Assembly (NCBI GenBank): GCA_016211945.1
Contig: JACRHV010000011.1
Coordinates: 787 to 64,786 of the forward strand
From: Minisyncoccota bacterium
Lineage (GTDB): Bacteria; Patescibacteriota; Microgenomatia; UBA1400; UBA12028
Reading direction: 5' to 3'
DNA: 64,000 nt
This document shows, piece after piece, positions 24,671-48,937 of the stretch; positions within the stretch are counted from its first letter, which is position 1; every line of letters begins with the position of its first letter. A model generated the notes under the pieces. It had not been told where the DNA came from. It searched no databases and saw only the letters and a list, made by a program, of their open reading frames with translations. The translations under genes were made by a program, and so were the position numbers.

Positions 24671-24723
24671 AATGTAGGCTATTGTAGCAAATCAGACGGA
24701 AAACACCGAGGGGAAAACTTGAG

Positions 24724-24807
24724 TGGGCGAAGAGGGACTCGAACCCTCACGATCTTGCAATCACAACTTTTTAAGAGTTGAGCGTCTACCAATTCCGCCA
24801 TTCGCCC
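24724..24807 (-). tRNA. tRNA-Leu (anticodon TAA), class II with a long variable arm
   Basis: Reverse complement gggcgaatggcggaattggtagacgctcaactcttaaaaagttg + long variable arm + gagggttcgagtccctcttcgccca. Confidence 0.8.
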
Positions 24808-25279
24808 CTTTATTTCTCCCTCTATGTGTGAGTTGTAAACTGTGGCAATTTGGACAAAGAATCCTTAAATTTTGAATTCTATTGTCATCATGACAACCAT
24901 TAATATGGTCCAACTCTAGTGGTAATCTACCATCTTCCGACATTTTTGACCAGCCACATATTTCGCACCATCGGTTCTTCAGTCCTTCTTTAAATAATCG
25001 ATGTTTTAATTGATACGACTGTATTATTGAGCCTTTTATAAGAAGAAGCTCTAGCGCTTTCGGTTTGTTCGGTTGGAATAATAACCCCCTATTCCATCCC
25101 ATACCTAAAAAATGATCTGTATTGAGATTTAATTCTCGAACGTATCGTTTAATGTGTTTGTAGTTTCCTCCTGCTTCTACAAGTCCTAAAGCAAAAAGAA
25201 CTTGCCTAATACTCCTTGAGTTTTTCACCGCAGAAACAAGCTGGGACGTTGTCCACCTTCTCTTTGTCATAGACAACAT
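24761..25279 (-). CDS. HNH homing-endonuclease-like protein; its 3' end runs ~45 nt into tRNA-Leu(TAA)
   Basis: ELDHINGCHDDNRIQNLRILCPNCH is the HNH motif; the N-terminal SQLVSAVKNSRSIRQVLFALGLVEAGGNYKHIKRYV...NTDHF is the common HNH-endonuclease N-terminal module; start placed at the internal Met. Confidence 0.65.
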   Translation of the reverse strand: MLSMTKRRWTTSQLVSAVKNSRSIRQVLFALGLVEAGGNYKHIKRYVRELNLNTDHFLGMGWNRGLLFQPNKPKALELLLIKGSIIQSYQLKHRLFKEGLKNRWCEICGWSKMSEDGRLPLELDHINGCHDDNRIQNLRILCPNCHSLQLTHRGRNKGANGGIGRRSTLKKL

Positions 25280-25305
25280 CTCATTATAGTAGAGTTTCTC
25301 TATTA

Positions 25306-26394
25306 TTACAACTGTTTTTGGAAAAATTGCACATCTCTTTCTACCACCTGTGACCATTTTCCTCGAGAAAAATTGTGATCCTCACCCTCATACACAAAGT
25401 AATTCACGCTATTTCCGTTTGCCTTTAGCTTCGCATATACATCATTTGACCAAGCAACCGGAACCAACGCATCTGCCGTCCCCTGATGAAGTTGGATTGG
25501 CGCACGAATGTCTTCCACATGTGATTGAATCGAGTAATCTTCGTCTTTATACCGCTCATGAAACAGATCAAGCTGTCCCCTCAAATACTCACCCTTATCC
25601 GGCAGTTCATCGACAAATTGCAGAATAGAATCCGGAAACTTTTGTGAGACCGGTGCCCAAAGGACCGTGGGATACGGACGTTTGCTGATTTCTAGTACAG
25701 ATAACACGATCTGCCCCCCATTGCTGTGCCCCCACAACCCCACCCGCCGGGTATCAACCTGCGGCAGACTCCCCAACGAGGCCAACAGATTCAGAACCGT
25801 CACCGGCTTTTCAAATCGAGCCTCCAACATATCCGCGGATTCACTCGCAGAGTTCCCGTATCCTAAAAAATCTGGTGCTATGGTCACATATCTGTGCTTT
25901 GCGTACACTTCTGCGGCGCGACGCGTCCCAACCCCCGGAACATAGATTTCTTTGTCCACATATCCGCGCACCATCACAAGAACGGGATGTTTTCCGCTTG
26001 TGCTGGGTATATGAACTTGGCCGGAAACCTTTTTTCCGTCACTGAAAAATGAAAAAAGGTACGTCGTAAAATCAGCAGTTTTCTCGGTCATTTTTTCCAA
26101 TTGAATGGGAGAAGATTGATACCTCCGTTGAGCCAAACGGTCAAATGTGTATTGGTCCAAGATGCGATGATACTCGGTGACTTGTAAATCTGGAGCTGCT
26201 GATCGCATGGGTGCATACAAGAAGCGATATCCGGCAAAAGTCAAAAAGACAATGCCTAAAATGAGACATAAGACGCTCGCTGACCGCGAATACGCACGAC
26301 GAGTCATGTTATCGTACATCCTGTATTGAACATGCGCGCAGTTCTTGTTCTGTCGCATGCCTCCACCTACCCACAGGCAATGCACCAAGTTCAA
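25306..26394 (-). CDS. Membrane-anchored alpha/beta hydrolase (prolyl-oligopeptidase/dienelactone-hydrolase-like)
   Basis: N-terminal TM anchor; VGLWGHSNGGQIV is the GxSxG nucleophile elbow. Confidence 0.55.
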   Translation of the reverse strand: MNLVHCLWVGGGMRQNKNCAHVQYRMYDNMTRRAYSRSASVLCLILGIVFLTFAGYRFLYAPMRSAAPDLQVTEYHRILDQYTFDRLAQRRYQSSPIQLEKMTEKTADFTTYLFSFFSDGKKVSGQVHIPSTSGKHPVLVMVRGYVDKEIYVPGVGTRRAAEVYAKHRYVTIAPDFLGYGNSASESADMLEARFEKPVTVLNLLASLGSLPQVDTRRVGLWGHSNGGQIVLSVLEISKRPYPTVLWAPVSQKFPDSILQFVDELPDKGEYLRGQLDLFHERYKDEDYSIQSHVEDIRAPIQLHQGTADALVPVAWSNDVYAKLKANGNSVNYFVYEGEDHNFSRGKWSQVVERDVQFFQKQL

Positions 26395-30564: not shown

Positions 30565-31038
30565 ATGGTGAGTATGATAGATCTACTAAAAAAGATTGCG
30601 TTTACAAAAGAGGGATACCAAAAAGTACAGGACGATATTCGCGTGCTAACAGAAAAGCGAGTCGGCGCCGTGGTAAATCTCCGGACTGCCCGAGAAATGG
30701 GCGATCTTTCTGAAAATGGTGCATATAAAGCCGCTCGATTTGAACTCAGCGCGATTGATCGAGAGTTGCGACGTCTCAATTACTTGTTGCGATTTGGGGT
30801 GGTTGTGGAGTCCGCTCATTCGGGTGTGATTGATTTTGGGAGCACTATTACCGTAAAAACCGGCGACAAAACCATGACATTTTTACTCGTTGACGGGTAT
30901 GAGTCGAACCCAAAAGAACACAAGTTATCGGTAAAAAGTCCCATTGGACGCGCGCTTGTAGGAAAAAAGGTTGGGGATCAAGTGATTGTTGTTGCACCTG
31001 CCGGAAAAACGACCTACGTTATCCTTGAGGTGAAGTAA
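30565..31038 (+). CDS. greA: Transcription elongation factor GreA
   Basis: LTEKRVGAVVNLRTAREMGDLSENGAYKAAR...SPIGRALVGKKVGD; start placed at an in-frame ATG because the upstream part of the long ORF is antisense to the glycosylase gene. Confidence 0.85.
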   Translation: MVSMIDLLKKIAFTKEGYQKVQDDIRVLTEKRVGAVVNLRTAREMGDLSENGAYKAARFELSAIDRELRRLNYLLRFGVVVESAHSGVIDFGSTITVKTGDKTMTFLLVDGYESNPKEHKLSVKSPIGRALVGKKVGDQVIVVAPAGKTTYVILEVK

Positions 31039-31783
31039 AAAAGAGAAACATGCGCTGAATAAGTGTTTCTCTCTGTGATTTATCACTAAAACTGTGATCG
31101 CCATCCATCCACTCGTCTTGTACCTCTGAAATTTTTGCGTATACCTCAAGGAATTTTGACCCTACAATCTCGTCCTGCTTTGGGTGAACCGTAAGAAGTT
31201 TTGTTTTTTTTGCAAATGTCCGAACTGCTTTTTCAGGATCAAAAACCAATAATACTTTCCAAAAACTTGGACCTACTTTTGTAACTTTTCCTGATGAACG
31301 TGGGAAAGTGGTAATACCTTGAAAATCCACGTGTGCACCTGGGCGTGAACCAAATCTTTTTACCATTTTTTCCTGAATATACGCTGTATTTGCATTGGGA
31401 ATTCCTGTGAATATCGTTTTTTGTATACCATCAGGATTTAAGAGTGCTGTAACAAATGTTCCCATTGATTGGGCGCAGATAAAAATATTACCGTGAAAGT
31501 TTTTCTTCGTATATTCGAGAACACAACGGAGATCGTCTGCCCATACTTTATAATCTTTTTCTTCAATTTTCCCCTCGCTCTTTCCACATCCAGAAAAATC
31601 GAATCGAACAATGCGAAACGTTTTACCTAACGTTTGGGCAATATCATCAAAAAAGCAACCAGTTTCATGTTTGTCTACCGCAAATCCATGCACAAAAATA
31701 ATCGTTGTTGTACTTTTTGCATTGCCCTCAACAAGGGTGTCGAGTCGCTCACCAAGAGAATTTGTAATGTGTGGAAAATGCAT
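31019..31783 (-). CDS. Alpha/beta hydrolase
   Basis: IFVHGF...FICAQSMGT is a GxSxG nucleophile elbow. Confidence 0.55.
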   Translation of the reverse strand: MHFPHITNSLGERLDTLVEGNAKSTTTIIFVHGFAVDKHETGCFFDDIAQTLGKTFRIVRFDFSGCGKSEGKIEEKDYKVWADDLRCVLEYTKKNFHGNIFICAQSMGTFVTALLNPDGIQKTIFTGIPNANTAYIQEKMVKRFGSRPGAHVDFQGITTFPRSSGKVTKVGPSFWKVLLVFDPEKAVRTFAKKTKLLTVHPKQDEIVGSKFLEVYAKISEVQDEWMDGDHSFSDKSQRETLIQRMFLFFTSPQG

Positions 31784-31858
31784 TGCTGCCGGGCTAGGGC
31801 TCGAACCTAGAGTCGCGCAGATTCAAAGTCTGGCGTGTTACCATTACACCACCCGGCA
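31784..31858 (-). tRNA. tRNA-Gln (anticodon TTG), U1-A72
   Basis: Reverse complement tgccgggtggtgtaatggtaacacgccagactttgaatctgc...ctaggttcgagccctagcccggca; anticodon loop ctTTGaa. Confidence 0.75.
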
Positions 31859-32601
31859 TCATGTGCGATTGACCGAGCCGTTCCAGCAAGGAATCTACTT
31901 AACGATGAACTTTTTCTTACATCGAGTTTCAATAATCCATAATATGTCGATGAAGACAGTCCTGCACGGTAAAGAATCGCCCTGTGATTATACCGCATAA
32001 ATGGTTTATTTTTTGTGTTCTTCTTAAATACCGTTTTCCTCCAGAAAATTGCAGAACTAGGAAAAAAGAATTTCCAATACTGGATCATATCTTCTTCCAC
32101 ATCTCTGAAATGTTCATGAAGATAGAGTTGAACAACAATCTGATCATCTGTGTAGCTTATAGACTTTAGCCATGAATAAAATATCAACAGTATTCCCGGA
32201 TCGCTATTACAAATTGATGTTTGATGAGAAGTCCTTCCATTTTGCTTTGATCCTTCTGCCCAATAGAGAGCTGACGCAATAAGATACATTTCTCTTTGTG
32301 AAAGTGTTTGTACCATCAATTTCGCAAATGATAATTGTCTCTTTTCATCAGTTATTCTTTTTACTCTACGGGTATTTCCACCAGTTTTCCTTCCAATATC
32401 GCTATTGATATGAAGTTGTGTTTTTTGCTCTAACGTAAGATCAATATGTTTTGTCCATTCACATACACTAGCATCAGAAACGTGAAGATGAACTGCAATA
32501 GCATGATACGAAAGGCCTGTTCGGCGCATTCGTATAGCTATGTTATGTTCCTTGGTTTTTGCTTTCATGGGGGCAGTAATATGGCTAACATATGTTAGCA
32601 T
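31807..32601 (-). CDS. HTH + single-motif LAGLIDADG-like endonuclease-family protein; its reading frame continues 51 nt into tRNA-Gln
   Basis: N-terminal RRTGLSYHAIAVHL...VCEWTK (HTH-like); LIASALYWAEGSK resembles LAGLIDADGS; paralogous to the ORF at 48124-48852. Confidence 0.45.
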   Translation of the reverse strand: MLTYVSHITAPMKAKTKEHNIAIRMRRTGLSYHAIAVHLHVSDASVCEWTKHIDLTLEQKTQLHINSDIGRKTGGNTRRVKRITDEKRQLSFAKLMVQTLSQREMYLIASALYWAEGSKQNGRTSHQTSICNSDPGILLIFYSWLKSISYTDDQIVVQLYLHEHFRDVEEDMIQYWKFFFPSSAIFWRKTVFKKNTKNKPFMRYNHRAILYRAGLSSSTYYGLLKLDVRKSSSLSRFLAGTARSIAHDAGWCNGNTPDFESARL

Positions 32602-48123: not shown

Positions 48124-48852
48124 TTGTCTATGAGAAAATATCGTACGTATGATAAAAAAATTATATTTCGTGCACTAGATTTAAGAAGACAAGGACTTTC
48201 GTATAAAGAAATTCTTAAGAAGCTAGAAGAATATCATATCCCCAAAAACACGTTATCCAATTGGTGTACAAAAGCAAAGATTTCATTGGATGCTATAGCA
48301 AGCGGGAAACTTCTTGCATATCAGCGCGTAGCACGATATTCCGCACAGCTTAAGGGTTCTGCTTGGCAAAAAACCCAAAAAATTTTGAGACAAAAATTTG
48401 CAAAAATGGAAGCCAGATTCTGCATGCAAGATGTTCTATCTCTTCAATCTAATCTTTCAGACCTTCTATTTTTCTCTGGATTTTATATAGGAGAAGGTGT
48501 GAAATGCTCGGATGAGCATGTTATGTTTGCAAACTCAAAAATTGAGATCTTGAAATGTTGTCTTTCTATTTTTCGGAAAGTATTTTCTGTTGACGAGAGT
48601 AAGTTTCGTATTGCGCTCCATTTACGGCATGATCAAAACATAGAAGAACTCGAGAAATATTGGTCGCAAGAACTCTCCATTCCTTTATCACAAATTATCA
48701 AGAGTAATATTGATCAACGGACGATTGGGAAAAAAACTTTTGATACATATAAAGGCGTCTGTGCAATCTACTACTATGATGCTAAAATACAGAGATTCTT
48801 ACTTGAGTTACAAGAACAATTTGTACTCAATATTTTAAAAAAGGGCGATTAG
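48124..48852 (+). CDS. HTH + single-motif LAGLIDADG-like endonuclease-family protein; its stop codon lies inside the 5' end of tRNA-Val(GAC)
   Basis: LRRQGLSYKEILKKL...LSNWCTK (HTH-like); DLLFFSGFYIGEGVK resembles LAGFIDGDG; paralog of the ORF at 31807-32601 (shared RRxGLSY, xxWxEGxK, YW...P segments). Confidence 0.5.
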   Translation: MSMRKYRTYDKKIIFRALDLRRQGLSYKEILKKLEEYHIPKNTLSNWCTKAKISLDAIASGKLLAYQRVARYSAQLKGSAWQKTQKILRQKFAKMEARFCMQDVLSLQSNLSDLLFFSGFYIGEGVKCSDEHVMFANSKIEILKCCLSIFRKVFSVDESKFRIALHLRHDQNIEELEKYWSQELSIPLSQIIKSNIDQRTIGKKTFDTYKGVCAIYYYDAKIQRFLLELQEQFVLNILKKGD

Positions 48853-48916
48853 CTCAGTTGGTTAGAGCGCTTGATCGACATTCAAGAGGTAACAGGTCCG
48901 AATCCTGTATCGCCCA
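48843..48916 (+). tRNA. tRNA-Val (anticodon GAC); apparent C at position 33
   Basis: gggcgattagctcagttggttagagcgcttgatcgacattcaagaggtaacaggtccgaatcctgtatcgccca; anticodon stem cttga/tcaag, loop tcGACat. Confidence 0.75.
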
Positions 48917-48937
48917 CTATAAGGAAAACCTGAAAAT

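What the first reader, a model, noticed from the sequence alone, without database searches (positions are those of the whole stretch)
31784..32601. Paralogous HTH + LAGLIDADG-like genes each running into the 5' end of a tRNA gene (copy 1, at tRNA-Gln)
ORF 31807-32601 (minus) and ORF 48124-48852 (plus) are paralogs. Both have an N-terminal HTH-like segment (RRTGLSYHAIAVHL / RRQGLSYKEILKKL ... WCTK/EWTK) and one LAGLIDADG-like motif (ASALYWAEGSK / FSGFYIGEGVK, cf. LAGFIDGDGS), plus a conserved downstream block. Each sits immediately 5' of a tRNA gene on the same strand, and its reading frame ends inside the tRNA: 51 nt into tRNA-Gln here, with a TAG stop inside tRNA-Val(GAC) in the other copy. 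An HNH endonuclease (24761-25279) overlaps tRNA-Leu(TAA) in the same way. Free-standing homing-endonuclease genes parked against tRNA genes are known from phage tRNA clusters (for example T4 seg genes). Here they are chromosomal, repeated, and always in the same overlapping geometry. That suggests tRNA genes act as homing or safe-harbour sites for endonuclease cassettes in this genome. An alternative is a tRNA-associated function for these proteins.
Basis: partly seen in the sequence, partly recalled or inferred. Interest (0 to 1): 0.6.

Follow-up and report, generated by a model that had tools for sequence, protein, structure and literature searches.

The report
Endonuclease-like genes parked before tRNA genes
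Two related genes in this small bacterial genome belong to a very large, unnamed protein family that almost always sits directly in front of one particular tRNA gene (usually tRNA-Gln); it is most likely a selfish DNA-cutting gene that uses tRNA genes as its landing site.

Summary
ORF 31807-32601(-) runs 52 nt into tRNA-Gln(UUG). ORF 48124-48852(+) runs 10 nt into tRNA-Val(GAC). An HNH ORF runs 47 nt into tRNA-Leu(UAA). The two HTH ORFs are true paralogs (hhalign probability 100%).

They belong to an unannotated family with no Pfam or NCBIfam model: 8481 cluster representatives at 50% identity. It occurs in Patescibacteria (CPR), Actinomycetota and a few uncultured phage tRNA arrays. In 97 of 103 loci the conserved domain ends a median 13 nt before base 1 of a same-strand tRNA, and 92 of these are tRNA-Gln(UUG). 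Protein subgroups track the tRNA partner (Gln, Met, Val/Ala, phage Leu/Val).

Empty sites, four pseudogenes among 80 loci and a cross-phylum occurrence at the same site argue for a dispensable, site-specific element. No integrase or flanking repeats are present.

The LAGLIDADG link is only moderately supported. The sole non-HTH PDB match is I-DmoI (E 0.004; hhalign 68%). Pfam and Foldseek give no significant LAGLIDADG hit.

Best reading (about 0.5): free-standing homing-endonuclease-type genes living in tRNA leaders as promoter-ORF-tRNA units. Main rival (about 0.3): a domesticated DNA-binding protein specific for tRNA genes.

The parts
31807..32601 (-). ORF1, 264 aa: member of the HTH + LAGLIDADG-like family, tRNA-Gln subfamily. 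The likely true start is the ATG at 32568 (residue 12), where homologues begin. It is absent from the protein database, probably not called because it overlaps the tRNA.
32455..32526 (-). N-terminal helix-turn-helix of ORF1 (residues 26-49), of the resolvase / Sleeping Beauty PAI type.
   Evidence: HTH_23; PDB match 2m8e; helices 16-49 in the AF2 model
32308..32433 (-). Long single helix (residues 57-98) linking the HTH to the C-terminal domain.
   Evidence: AF2 model, pLDDT above 90
32245..32271 (-). ALYWAEGSK motif: end of the LAGLIDADG-like helix. It carries the nearly invariant Glu116, Gly117 and Lys119, and aligns with GLYVAEGDK of I-DmoI.
32197..32211 (-). CNSDP block (conserved Asn132 and Asp134) on the second strand. 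It aligns with the WNKN block of I-DmoI.
31785..31858 (-). tRNA-Gln(UUG), intact. The next gene's ATG (31783) follows directly.
   Evidence: 59 bits
31807..31858 (-). Overlap of the ORF1 tail (…GWCNGNTPDFESARL*) with tRNA-Gln nucleotides 1-52. The tail is not conserved as protein.
48124..48852 (+). ORF2, 242 aa (240 aa from the ATG at 48130 = MBI5151815.1, Candidatus Pacebacteria MAG): paralog, tRNA-Val(GAC)/Ala(GGC) subfamily.
48478..48504 (+). GFYIGEGVK motif of ORF2, the counterpart of ALYWAEGSK.
48843..48917 (+). tRNA-Val(GAC). ORF2 ends with TAG at tRNA nucleotides 8-10.
24761..25357 (-). HNH endonuclease ORF (198 aa, or 172 aa from 25279). Its tail …GANGGIGRRSTLKKL* is encoded by tRNA-Leu.
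   Evidence: (phrog_10822, E 4e-44)
24723..24807 (-). tRNA-Leu(UAA), overlapped by 47 nt by the HNH ORF.

Best explanation
ORF1 and ORF2 belong to a large, so far unnamed protein family of about 230 aa. The architecture is an N-terminal resolvase/transposase-type HTH, a roughly 40-residue helix, and a C-terminal alpha/beta domain. That domain's first half resembles a LAGLIDADG_3 domain: a motif helix ending in (L/F)Y(W/I)(A/G)EGxK, a hairpin carrying NSD, and a following helix.

The genes are free-standing, site-specific selfish cassettes of the homing-endonuclease type, or long-resident descendants of such cassettes. They live in the 5' leader of one particular tRNA gene. The unit is promoter - ORF - tRNA.

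Inferred steps:
- The protein acts as a dimer. The HTH and/or the saddle of the C-terminal domain recognises the conserved tRNA gene.
- It cuts cassette-free alleles near the 5' border of the tRNA gene.
- Repair from an occupied allele copies the cassette in, using the conserved tRNA as the right-hand homology arm.
- The leader is a safe harbour because RNase P removes any 5' leader. The tRNA therefore matures normally, and the cassette is transcribed together with an essential gene.
- The stop codon inside the tRNA is a by-product of the very tight junction. RNase P cleavage would then leave part of the mRNA without a stop codon, which might keep protein levels low.

Shown here: family membership, tRNA specificity, the geometry, empty sites, pseudogenes, and tandem-duplicated forms. 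Inferred: nuclease activity, dimerisation, co-transcription, and homing.
For: (1) The family is huge and unannotated. A profile search found 8481 representatives at E<=1e-3 and 1245 at E<=1e-30, mostly about 230 aa. There is no Pfam or NCBIfam model beyond the HTH. Source names are only 'hypothetical' or 'HTH domain-containing'.

(2) tRNA linkage. In the 80 best species-genome loci, 73 have tRNA-Gln(ttg) on the same strand directly 3' of the ORF, 3 have tRNA-Met(cat), and 4 have none directly 3' (3 of those 4 still have a tRNA beside the ORF). The independent homologues P0001, P0002, P0003, P0005, P0006 and P0008 all have tRNA-Gln although their neighbouring genes differ. Profile position 226 lies a median 13 nt (interquartile range 3-22) from tRNA base 1 in 97 of 103 ORFs. 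In 31 of about 70 intact cases the stop lies inside the tRNA. The commonest case is TAA at tRNA nucleotides 13-15, which gives the recurrent tails CGVV, WGVV and SGIV.

(3) Protein subgroups follow the tRNA partner. The ORF2 group sits at tRNA-Val(gac) (L219, L221) or tRNA-Ala(ggc) (L223). The tRNA-Met group clusters together.

(4) Uncultured phage tRNA arrays carry relatives with the same geometry. In L217 the ORF ends 4 nt before tRNA-Val(tac). In L216 the ORF overlaps tRNA-Leu(cag) by 15 nt.

(5) The gene is dispensable and shows site-specific presence or absence.
- Empty sites: dnaX-7 nt-tRNA-Gln in L155 and dnaX-14 nt-tRNA-Gln in L097, against dnaX-promoter-ORF-tRNA-Gln in L061, L044 and L025.
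- In Acidimicrobiales (69% GC), L087 has ksgA-ispE-bS22-ORF-tRNA-Gln-glmU-prs. L109 has the same synteny without the ORF.
- Four of 80 copies are pseudogenes: L048, L057, L077 (nonsense codons) and L072 (frameshift).

(6) There are no terminal repeats, no partial tRNA duplication and no integrase.

(7) LAGLIDADG link.
- The only non-HTH PDB matches of the family profile are I-DmoI chains (E 0.004-0.03). They align ALYWAEGSK…NSD…WL with GLYVAEGDK…NKN…WL.
- hhalign gives probability 68%, E 4.8e-5. That I-DmoI segment is Pfam LAGLIDADG_3.
- The best-probability Foldseek hit in the viral library (BFVD, predicted structures of viral proteins) is a homing endonuclease (0.87). Several intein-containing proteins superpose over about 130 residues.
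- Glu116, Gly117 and Lys119 are conserved in at least 90% of members.

(8) Actinomadura proteins of 504-576 aa are tandem duplications of the whole module. This parallels the homodimer-to-monomer evolution known for LAGLIDADG enzymes (established knowledge).

(9) Promoter-like sites (at least 10 of 12 matches) lie at a fixed place 5' of the ORF in 25 of 92 loci, against 2 of 92 in the within-ORF control.

(10) A bona fide HNH endonuclease in the same window does the same at tRNA-Leu(UAA), and so do its phage relatives.
Against: - No Pfam LAGLIDADG model matches any of 128 members among the families listed.
- Foldseek of both AF2 models against the PDB gives nothing significant and no LAGLIDADG chain in the top 50. 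The BFVD hit is not significant (E 0.16).
- The subfamily-2 profile does not hit I-DmoI.
- The predicted second half of the domain has an extra helix and strand relative to the canonical alpha-beta-beta-alpha-beta-beta-alpha fold.
- Protein similarity groups largely follow host taxonomy: Nomurabacteria, Moranbacteria and Yanofskybacteria each cluster, and the two Actinomycetota copies pair. The tRNA-Gln sequences diverge along with their hosts. Recent horizontal spread is therefore not evident.
- The family has no hits in GenBank phages or PLSDB plasmids.
- If the target lies within the tRNA gene, it is unclear how an occupied genome avoids cutting itself.
- Nuclease activity, co-transcription and homing were not and could not be tested here.
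Confidence: 0.5

Rival explanations
1. Domesticated element. The family descends from a LAGLIDADG-type endonuclease but now serves the host as a DNA-binding protein dedicated to one tRNA gene. Possible roles are autoregulating the promoter-ORF-tRNA unit or protecting or marking the tRNA locus. It would be inherited vertically with its tRNA.
For: - Protein clusters follow host taxonomy.
- The ORF-tRNA junction is extremely precise and conserved.
- A promoter sits at a conserved position.
- The family persists in very small CPR genomes and in cultured Actinomadura.
- Many non-catalytic positions are strongly conserved (R26, G29, W49, W176, G222).
- There are two DNA-binding modules (HTH plus a saddle-like domain), as in WhiA (established knowledge).
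Against: - Empty sites in syntenic relatives and 4 pseudogenes among 80 loci show the gene is dispensable.
- Separate paralogous subfamilies sit at Gln, Met, Val, Ala and Leu tRNAs, and copies lie inside phage tRNA arrays. This is hard to explain by a single host function.
- The catalytic-position Glu is retained in at least 90% of members, unlike WhiA.
- The neighbouring HNH gene, a plain nuclease, shows the same geometry.
Confidence: 0.3
2. RNA-level partner. The protein binds the precursor transcript or the tRNA itself, as LAGLIDADG maturases bind introns. It would assist or control maturation of the tRNA it is co-transcribed with. The tight junction exists because protein and tRNA act in cis.
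For: - The ORF-tRNA juxtaposition is always same-strand and immediate, implying one transcript.
- LAGLIDADG proteins can evolve RNA-binding maturase activity (established knowledge).
Against: - The tRNAs are ordinary, intron-free and score normally.
- Empty sites show that the tRNA functions without the protein.
- The N-terminal domain is a typical DNA-binding HTH of the resolvase/transposase kind.
- No RNA-binding domain was detected.
Confidence: 0.07
3. The ORFs are cargo or remnants of integrative elements or transposons that target tRNA genes, not endonuclease cassettes.
For: - tRNA genes are classic integration sites.
- A large serine recombinase lies on the 3' side of tRNA-Gln in several Parcubacteria loci.
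- The N-terminal HTH resembles transposase and resolvase HTHs.
Against: - There are no inverted or direct terminal repeats and no duplicated tRNA segment around any of the three window ORFs.
- The insert is a single gene of about 750 nt on the 5' side of the tRNA.
- There is no recombinase or DDE domain in the protein.
- Most loci, including the window, have no recombinase nearby.
Confidence: 0.04

Closest known systems
Free-standing homing endonuclease genes in phage tRNA clusters (T4 SegB, GIY-YIG; PMC2330249)
   Same: A single endonuclease-type gene with no intron or intein, placed between or against tRNA genes. Presence or absence varies between related genomes. Relatives of this family also occur inside uncultured phage tRNA arrays.
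   Different: - The protein fold and architecture differ: HTH + LAGLIDADG-like, not GIY-YIG.
- The family is mainly chromosomal, in Patescibacteria and Actinomycetota.
- Each subfamily is tied to one tRNA identity.
- The junction is fixed within a few nucleotides of tRNA base 1.
- Activity is untested.
I-DmoI / Pfam LAGLIDADG_3 (PF14528) homing endonucleases
   Same: The motif helix ends in AEG(D/S)K. It is followed by a hairpin with a conserved Asn and a helix ending in WL. This is the only non-HTH PDB sequence match. Single-module and tandem-module forms both exist.
   Different: - The family falls below every Pfam LAGLIDADG threshold.
- Foldseek gives no significant structural match.
- There is an extra N-terminal HTH and a long linker helix.
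- The predicted second half of the domain is elaborated.
- The gene is not intron- or intein-encoded.
WhiA (domesticated LAGLIDADG + HTH regulator of Gram-positive bacteria)
   Same: It combines a LAGLIDADG-type scaffold with an HTH in a chromosomal, vertically inherited bacterial protein. It is the model for the domestication rival.
   Different: - The domain order is reversed: here the HTH is N-terminal and there is one LAGLIDADG-like module.
- The acidic motif residue is retained.
- There is no match to WhiA Pfam models.
- The gene is tied to tRNA genes, not to the whiA operon.
LAGLIDADG endonucleases in rRNA insertion sequences of CPR bacteria (PMC11270868)
   Same: The host group is the same. 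These are selfish endonuclease genes lodged in highly conserved structural-RNA genes.
   Different: Those lie inside rRNA genes, as introns or insertion sequences. That paper does not mention tRNA at all. Here the ORF is outside the mature RNA, in the 5' leader, and carries an HTH.

Membership tests
LAGLIDADG homing endonucleases | Motif helix ending in a conserved acidic residue followed by Gly (…D/E-G) | tested here: met
   ALYWAEGSK and GFYIGEGVK. Glu116 and Gly117 are conserved in at least 90-100% of 128 members. They align with the AEG of I-DmoI domain 2.
LAGLIDADG homing endonucleases | Significant match to a curated LAGLIDADG model (PF00961, PF03161, PF14528, PF14527) | tested here: not met
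   No LAGLIDADG family for ORF1 or ORF2 at E<=1, nor among the 25 most-matched families of 128 members. The link is only indirect, through the I-DmoI segment that is itself PF14528.
LAGLIDADG homing endonucleases | alpha-beta-beta-alpha-beta-beta-alpha fold with a four-stranded DNA-binding saddle | tested here: inconclusive
   - AF2 models (pLDDT 80 and 77) give alpha-beta-beta-alpha-beta-alpha-beta…beta-alpha.
- Foldseek against the PDB found no significant hit.
- In the viral library (BFVD), the best-probability hit (0.87, E 0.16) is a homing endonuclease, with several intein-bearing proteins.
LAGLIDADG homing endonucleases | Two motif-bearing modules per active enzyme (homodimer or tandem fusion) | tested here: met
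   Single-module proteins of about 230 aa dominate. Proteins of 504-576 aa in Actinomadura are complete tandem duplications of the module. Dimerisation itself is inferred.
LAGLIDADG homing endonucleases | Site-specific double-strand DNA cleavage | not testable with these tools
   Needs biochemistry.
Free-standing homing endonuclease genes | Presence/absence polymorphism at one defined genomic site beside a conserved target gene, with no integrase or repeats | tested here: met
   Occupied against empty dnaX-tRNA-Gln sites and bS22-tRNA-Gln sites. Pseudogenes. No repeats. The compared genomes are only 50-57% identical in flanking proteins, so loss cannot be told from gain.
Free-standing homing endonuclease genes | Evidence of horizontal spread (phylogeny incongruent with hosts) | tested here: inconclusive
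   The same site is occupied in Patescibacteria, Actinomycetota and phage arrays. Within CPR, nearest neighbours mostly share taxonomy.
WhiA-type domesticated LAGLIDADG regulators | Two degenerate N-terminal LAGLIDADG domains lacking catalytic residues, plus a C-terminal HTH | tested here: not met
   The order is reversed, there is a single module and the Glu is retained. No WhiA Pfam hit.
tRNA-targeting integrative elements | Integrase/recombinase plus duplicated att (a partial tRNA copy) at the element ends | tested here: not met
   No flanking repeats or tRNA fragment. The protein has no recombinase domain.
HNH homing endonucleases (for ORF 24761-25357) | HNH catalytic motif and a match to curated or phage HNH families | tested here: met
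   phrog_10822 at E 4e-44. Pfam HNH scores 21.3 bits, just below the 21.4 cut-off. The DHINGCHDDN…CPNCH motif is present.

The most novel reading that the evidence does not exclude
The family is not, or no longer, selfish. It would be a previously unrecognised class of proteins dedicated to single tRNA genes, conserved across Patescibacteria and Actinomycetota. Each protein would form an obligatory promoter-ORF-tRNA unit and control or protect that tRNA gene. Possible mechanisms are autoregulation of tRNA-Gln supply, blocking of mobile-element integration, or coupling of translation termination inside the tRNA to RNase P processing.
Probability: 0.25. Interest if true: 0.85.

Novelty: new variant of a known kind. 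Interest (0 to 1): 0.68.

Why it matters
If the reading is right, one of the largest uncharacterised protein families in CPR bacteria is explained. The family has thousands of 50%-identity clusters and also occurs in cultured Actinomadura. It would be a tRNA-leader-resident endonuclease lineage whose subfamilies have diversified by tRNA identity.

This would extend the idea of homing endonucleases parked at tRNA genes from phage tRNA clusters to bacterial chromosomes across phyla. It would add the tRNA 5' leader, cleared by RNase P, as a safe harbour for selfish genes.

It would also provide a natural panel of compact DNA-recognition proteins that appear to distinguish individual tRNA genes.

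Practically, such ORFs overlap tRNA genes and can be dropped by annotation pipelines. ORF1 of this window is absent from the protein databases. The cultured Actinomadura homologues make the question testable by experiment.

Tried and rejected
- Foldseek of the full-length and domain-only AF2 models against the PDB gave only non-significant alpha/beta hits.
- A homologue search seeded with the I-DmoI fragment, meant to build a LAGLIDADG_3 profile, found nothing.
- The subfamily-2 profile against the PDB gave only an HTH hit.
- The occupancy test used a tRNA-Gln D-arm/anticodon pattern on metagenome contigs. It gave 6 of 91 loci with the ORF. I reject this as an occupancy estimate for CPR, because the pattern also matches tRNA-Gln of many other phyla (for example the 71% GC locus L109). 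It was useful only as a source of empty sites.
- tblastn against GenBank phages and PLSDB plasmids gave no match. Subfamily 2 has no relative in IMG/VR.
- The search for terminal repeats or a partial tRNA duplication found only short chance-level matches.
- The consensus promoter scan in the window found nothing above shuffles on the ORF1 strand.
- The other ORFs upstream of tRNAs in the window are ordinary or unknown and are not family members.
- I considered that the in-frame TAA/TAG codons in L048, L057 and L077 might be recoded Gln codons. I rejected this as unsupported: each is a single event at a different position, L048 also has one at a Glu position, and the adjacent tRNA has a normal UUG anticodon.
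Full report
**1. Observation**

ARAGORN finds 15 tRNA genes in the window and Rfam confirms all of them.
- ORF 31807-32601(-), 264 aa, ends with a TAG that lies in the T-arm of tRNA-Gln(UUG) at 31785-31858(-). The overlap is 52 nt.
- ORF 48124-48852(+), 242 aa, ends with a TAG 10 nt into tRNA-Val(GAC) at 48843-48917(+).
- The HNH ORF 24761-25357(-) runs 47 nt into tRNA-Leu(UAA) at 24723-24807(-).

The other 12 tRNAs have upstream ORFs that stop 13-313 nt before the tRNA. These are ordinary or unknown genes.

The two HTH ORFs are only 22% identical (BLASTP E 6e-4). Profiles built without each of them still detect them (E 3.7e-32 and 1.9e-17), and hhalign gives probability 100%. They are the only two copies in the window.

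ORF2 equals MBI5151815.1 of a Candidatus Pacebacteria MAG. ORF1 has no identical entry in the protein collection, so it was probably not called because it overlaps the tRNA.

**2. The family**

A word-indexed search found only 11 relatives of ORF1, at 25-37% identity. A profile search of 1.84 billion cluster representatives found 8481 proteins at E<=1e-3 and 1245 at E<=1e-30, nearly all about 230 aa.

Neither Pfam nor NCBIfam recognises anything beyond an N-terminal HTH of the HTH_23, resolvase or Sleeping Beauty type; 110 of 128 members match it. Source names are 'hypothetical' or 'helix-turn-helix domain-containing protein'.

A scan of one genome per species found at least 557 relatives using a single 8-residue pattern. 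The best 80 are all Patescibacteria-type MAGs apart from two Actinomycetota contigs.

Conserved positions are R26, G29 and W49 in the HTH, then G109, L112, Y113, W114, E116, G117, K119, N132, D134, W144, W176 and G222.

**3. The tRNA linkage is the main result**

- Six independent metagenomic homologues with different neighbouring genes all lie directly 5' of tRNA-Gln(UUG) on the same strand.
- Of the 80 species loci, 73 have tRNA-Gln(UUG) in that position and 3 have tRNA-Met(CAU).
- Of the 4 others, 3 still have a tRNA next to the ORF in another arrangement.
- Measured from profile position 226, the end of the conserved GWIEGI block, tRNA base 1 follows at a median of 13 nt (interquartile range 3-22) in 97 of 103 ORFs. 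It follows at exactly 3 nt in 28 of them.
- In about 31 of 70 intact cases the stop codon is supplied by the tRNA. It is most often the TAA at D-loop nucleotides 13-15, which explains the recurrent C-terminal tails CGVV, WGVV and SGIV.

The frame and the length of the overlap vary, so the overlap is a consequence of the tight junction and not a conserved coding feature. The tRNA-Gln sequences themselves differ between loci, with compensatory changes. This is therefore not one recently spread tRNA copy.

**4. Subfamilies follow the tRNA partner**

- Relatives of ORF2 at 44-52% identity sit 5' of tRNA-Val(GAC). They share the window's synteny: tRNA-Leu(UAG), trigger factor, DUF5660, ORF, tRNA-Val, thrS.
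- A 41% relative overlaps tRNA-Ala(GGC) by 10 nt.
- The tRNA-Met-linked proteins form their own similarity group.
- Four IMG/VR contigs carry relatives inside tRNA arrays. In L217 the ORF stops 4 nt before tRNA-Val(UAC), within a stretch of 17 tRNAs. In L216 the ORF overlaps tRNA-Leu(CAG) by 15 nt.

**5. Dispensability and site specificity**

In several Parcubacteria the order is dnaX, ORF, tRNA-Gln, then a serine recombinase on the opposite strand. In L155 and L097, dnaX ends 7 and 14 nt before tRNA-Gln with no ORF.

An Acidimicrobiales contig (L087, 69% GC) has ksgA-ispE-bS22-ORF-tRNA-Gln-glmU-prs. The ORF there has host-like composition and ends …SRVV in the usual -15 frame. L109 (71% GC) has the same synteny with a nearly identical bS22 gene but no ORF.

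Four of 80 copies are pseudogenes: nonsense codons in L048, L057 and L077, and a frameshift in L072.

No terminal repeats, tRNA fragment duplication or recombinase domain accompany the window ORFs.

Promoter-like sites with at least 10 of 12 matches lie at a constant place just 5' of the ORF in 25 of 92 loci, against 2 of 92 in a within-ORF control. In L061 the site is TTGCAT-N17-TATAAT by eye; the scan reports TTTGCA-N18-TATAAT. The inserted unit therefore appears to be promoter plus ORF, with the tRNA read from the same promoter. This last step is inferred.

**6. Is it LAGLIDADG?**

For:
- The only non-HTH PDB sequence matches of the family profile are I-DmoI chains, at E 0.004-0.006 with 13 sequences and 0.011-0.043 with 128.
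- The alignment covers the motif helix, the hairpin and the next helix: ALYWAEGSKQ…RVxFxNSDPxMIKxFLxWL against GLYVAEGDKT…RLRIWNKNKALLEIVSRWL.
- hhalign gives probability 68% and E 4.8e-5 against that segment. The segment itself is Pfam LAGLIDADG_3.
- The motif Glu sits where I-DmoI has its AEG. From my own knowledge, that is the catalytic Glu117.
- Proteins of 504-576 aa in Actinomadura atramentaria, A. parmotrematis and related metagenomic sequences are complete tandem duplications of the module. This mirrors the homodimer and pseudo-dimer forms of LAGLIDADG enzymes.

Against:
- No Pfam LAGLIDADG model matches.
- The subfamily-2 profile does not reach I-DmoI.
- Foldseek of two AF2 models (pLDDT 80 and 77) finds nothing significant in the PDB.
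- In the viral library (BFVD, predicted structures of viral proteins), the hit with the highest probability (0.87, E 0.16, 130 columns, 4.2 Å) is a homing endonuclease. Several intein-bearing proteins superpose over about 130 residues. This is suggestive only.

I therefore call the protein LAGLIDADG-like, probably homologous in its first half, with fold membership unproven.

**7. Mechanism**

The best-supported reading is a free-standing, site-specific endonuclease cassette of the homing type that resides in the 5' leader of a specific tRNA gene.

The leader is a neutral place because RNase P removes it whatever its length (established knowledge). A cassette there is transcribed together with an essential gene. 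The conserved tRNA gives both a recognisable target and a homology arm.

The modular build, with an HTH, a long helix and a catalytic-type domain, recalls other modular homing enzymes. That resemblance is a lead only.

The same behaviour of a bona fide HNH endonuclease in this window supports the general principle. Its phage relatives sit beside tRNA-Leu(UAA) in 6 of 11 loci.

Against a purely selfish, recently mobile element:
- Nearest neighbours mostly share host taxonomy.
- There are no relatives in sequenced phages or plasmids.
- Conservation extends beyond the motif.

A domesticated DNA-binding protein specific for one tRNA gene therefore remains a serious rival. I put it at 0.3, against 0.5 for the homing reading.

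**8. Comparison with the literature and novelty**

Homing endonuclease genes in phage tRNA clusters are known, for example T4 SegB (PMC2330249). LAGLIDADG genes in CPR rRNA insertions are also known (PMC11270868), but that paper does not mention tRNA.

Full-text searches found no description of a chromosomal, tRNA-Gln-linked HTH/LAGLIDADG-like family.

I rate this a new variant of a known kind. It is a new protein family and architecture, with a fixed position in the tRNA leader and subfamilies specific to tRNA identity, found across two bacterial phyla.

Noticed in passing
window 24723-25357 (-); loci L227-L237: The HNH ORF that overlaps tRNA-Leu(UAA) has phage relatives that lie next to tRNA-Leu(UAA) in 6 of 11 IMG/VR loci. 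In L235 and L236 they are immediately 5' of it, as in the window. In L230-L233 they are immediately 3'. Most of the rest are in tRNA arrays. This HNH lineage therefore seems tied to one tRNA identity as well.
   Followed up: partly
window 25340-25355 (-): The first codons of the HNH ORF (ATGGTCACAGGTGGTAGA) resemble the D-arm region of tRNA-Leu and tRNA-Pro (75-81% over 16 nt). This may be a chance match or a remnant of a duplicated tRNA 5' part.
   Followed up: no
L007 4974-5246; L012 4900-5136; L009 3219-3470: Small GIY-YIG-only ORFs (78-90 aa, PF01541) lie just 3' of the ORF-tRNA-Gln pair in several CPR loci. tRNA-Gln may thus be flanked by nuclease-type genes on both sides.
   Followed up: no
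L027 3778-5241 (-), L025, L073, L057, L044, L173; degenerate in L155 1163-2050: A large serine recombinase gene (Resolvase + Recombinase + Zn_ribbon_recom) sits on the opposite strand directly 3' of tRNA-Gln in several Parcubacteria. It is broken in L155. This suggests an integrated element, or its remnant, at the same tRNA.
   Followed up: partly
P0012, P0013, P0018, P0021 (Actinomadura atramentaria WP_019629257.1, A. parmotrematis WP_220163469.1): Family members of 504-576 aa are tandem duplications of the whole HTH + domain module, found in cultured high-GC actinomycetes. The tail of P0013, …GAGIV*, is what a tRNA-Gln 5' end (TGCCGGGATCGTCTAA) would encode.
   Followed up: partly
L048, L057, L077: The premature TAA/TAG codons in three pseudogene copies fall at positions that are Gln or Glu in homologues, which is consistent with C-to-T or G-to-T point mutations. 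They were noted because the gene sits next to tRNA-Gln, but there is no evidence of recoding.
   Followed up: partly
window 31783-31786: Gene packing is extremely tight. The ATG of the alpha/beta hydrolase gene (31019-31783, -) starts 1-2 nt after the 3' end of tRNA-Gln. The tRNA is thus wedged between two ORFs with no room for its own promoter or terminator.
   Followed up: no
window 31807-32601 (-): ORF1 has no identical entry in the 15-billion-protein collection, although ORF2 from the same MAG does. Genes overlapping tRNAs are probably lost systematically by annotation pipelines, so the family may be under-counted.
   Followed up: no
L224 2501-3211, L226 1723-2433 (P0184): A divergent family member (LYAAEGDK) follows dnaG-rpoD and has no detectable tRNA downstream. 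It is an exception that might mark a different target or a lost tRNA.
   Followed up: no
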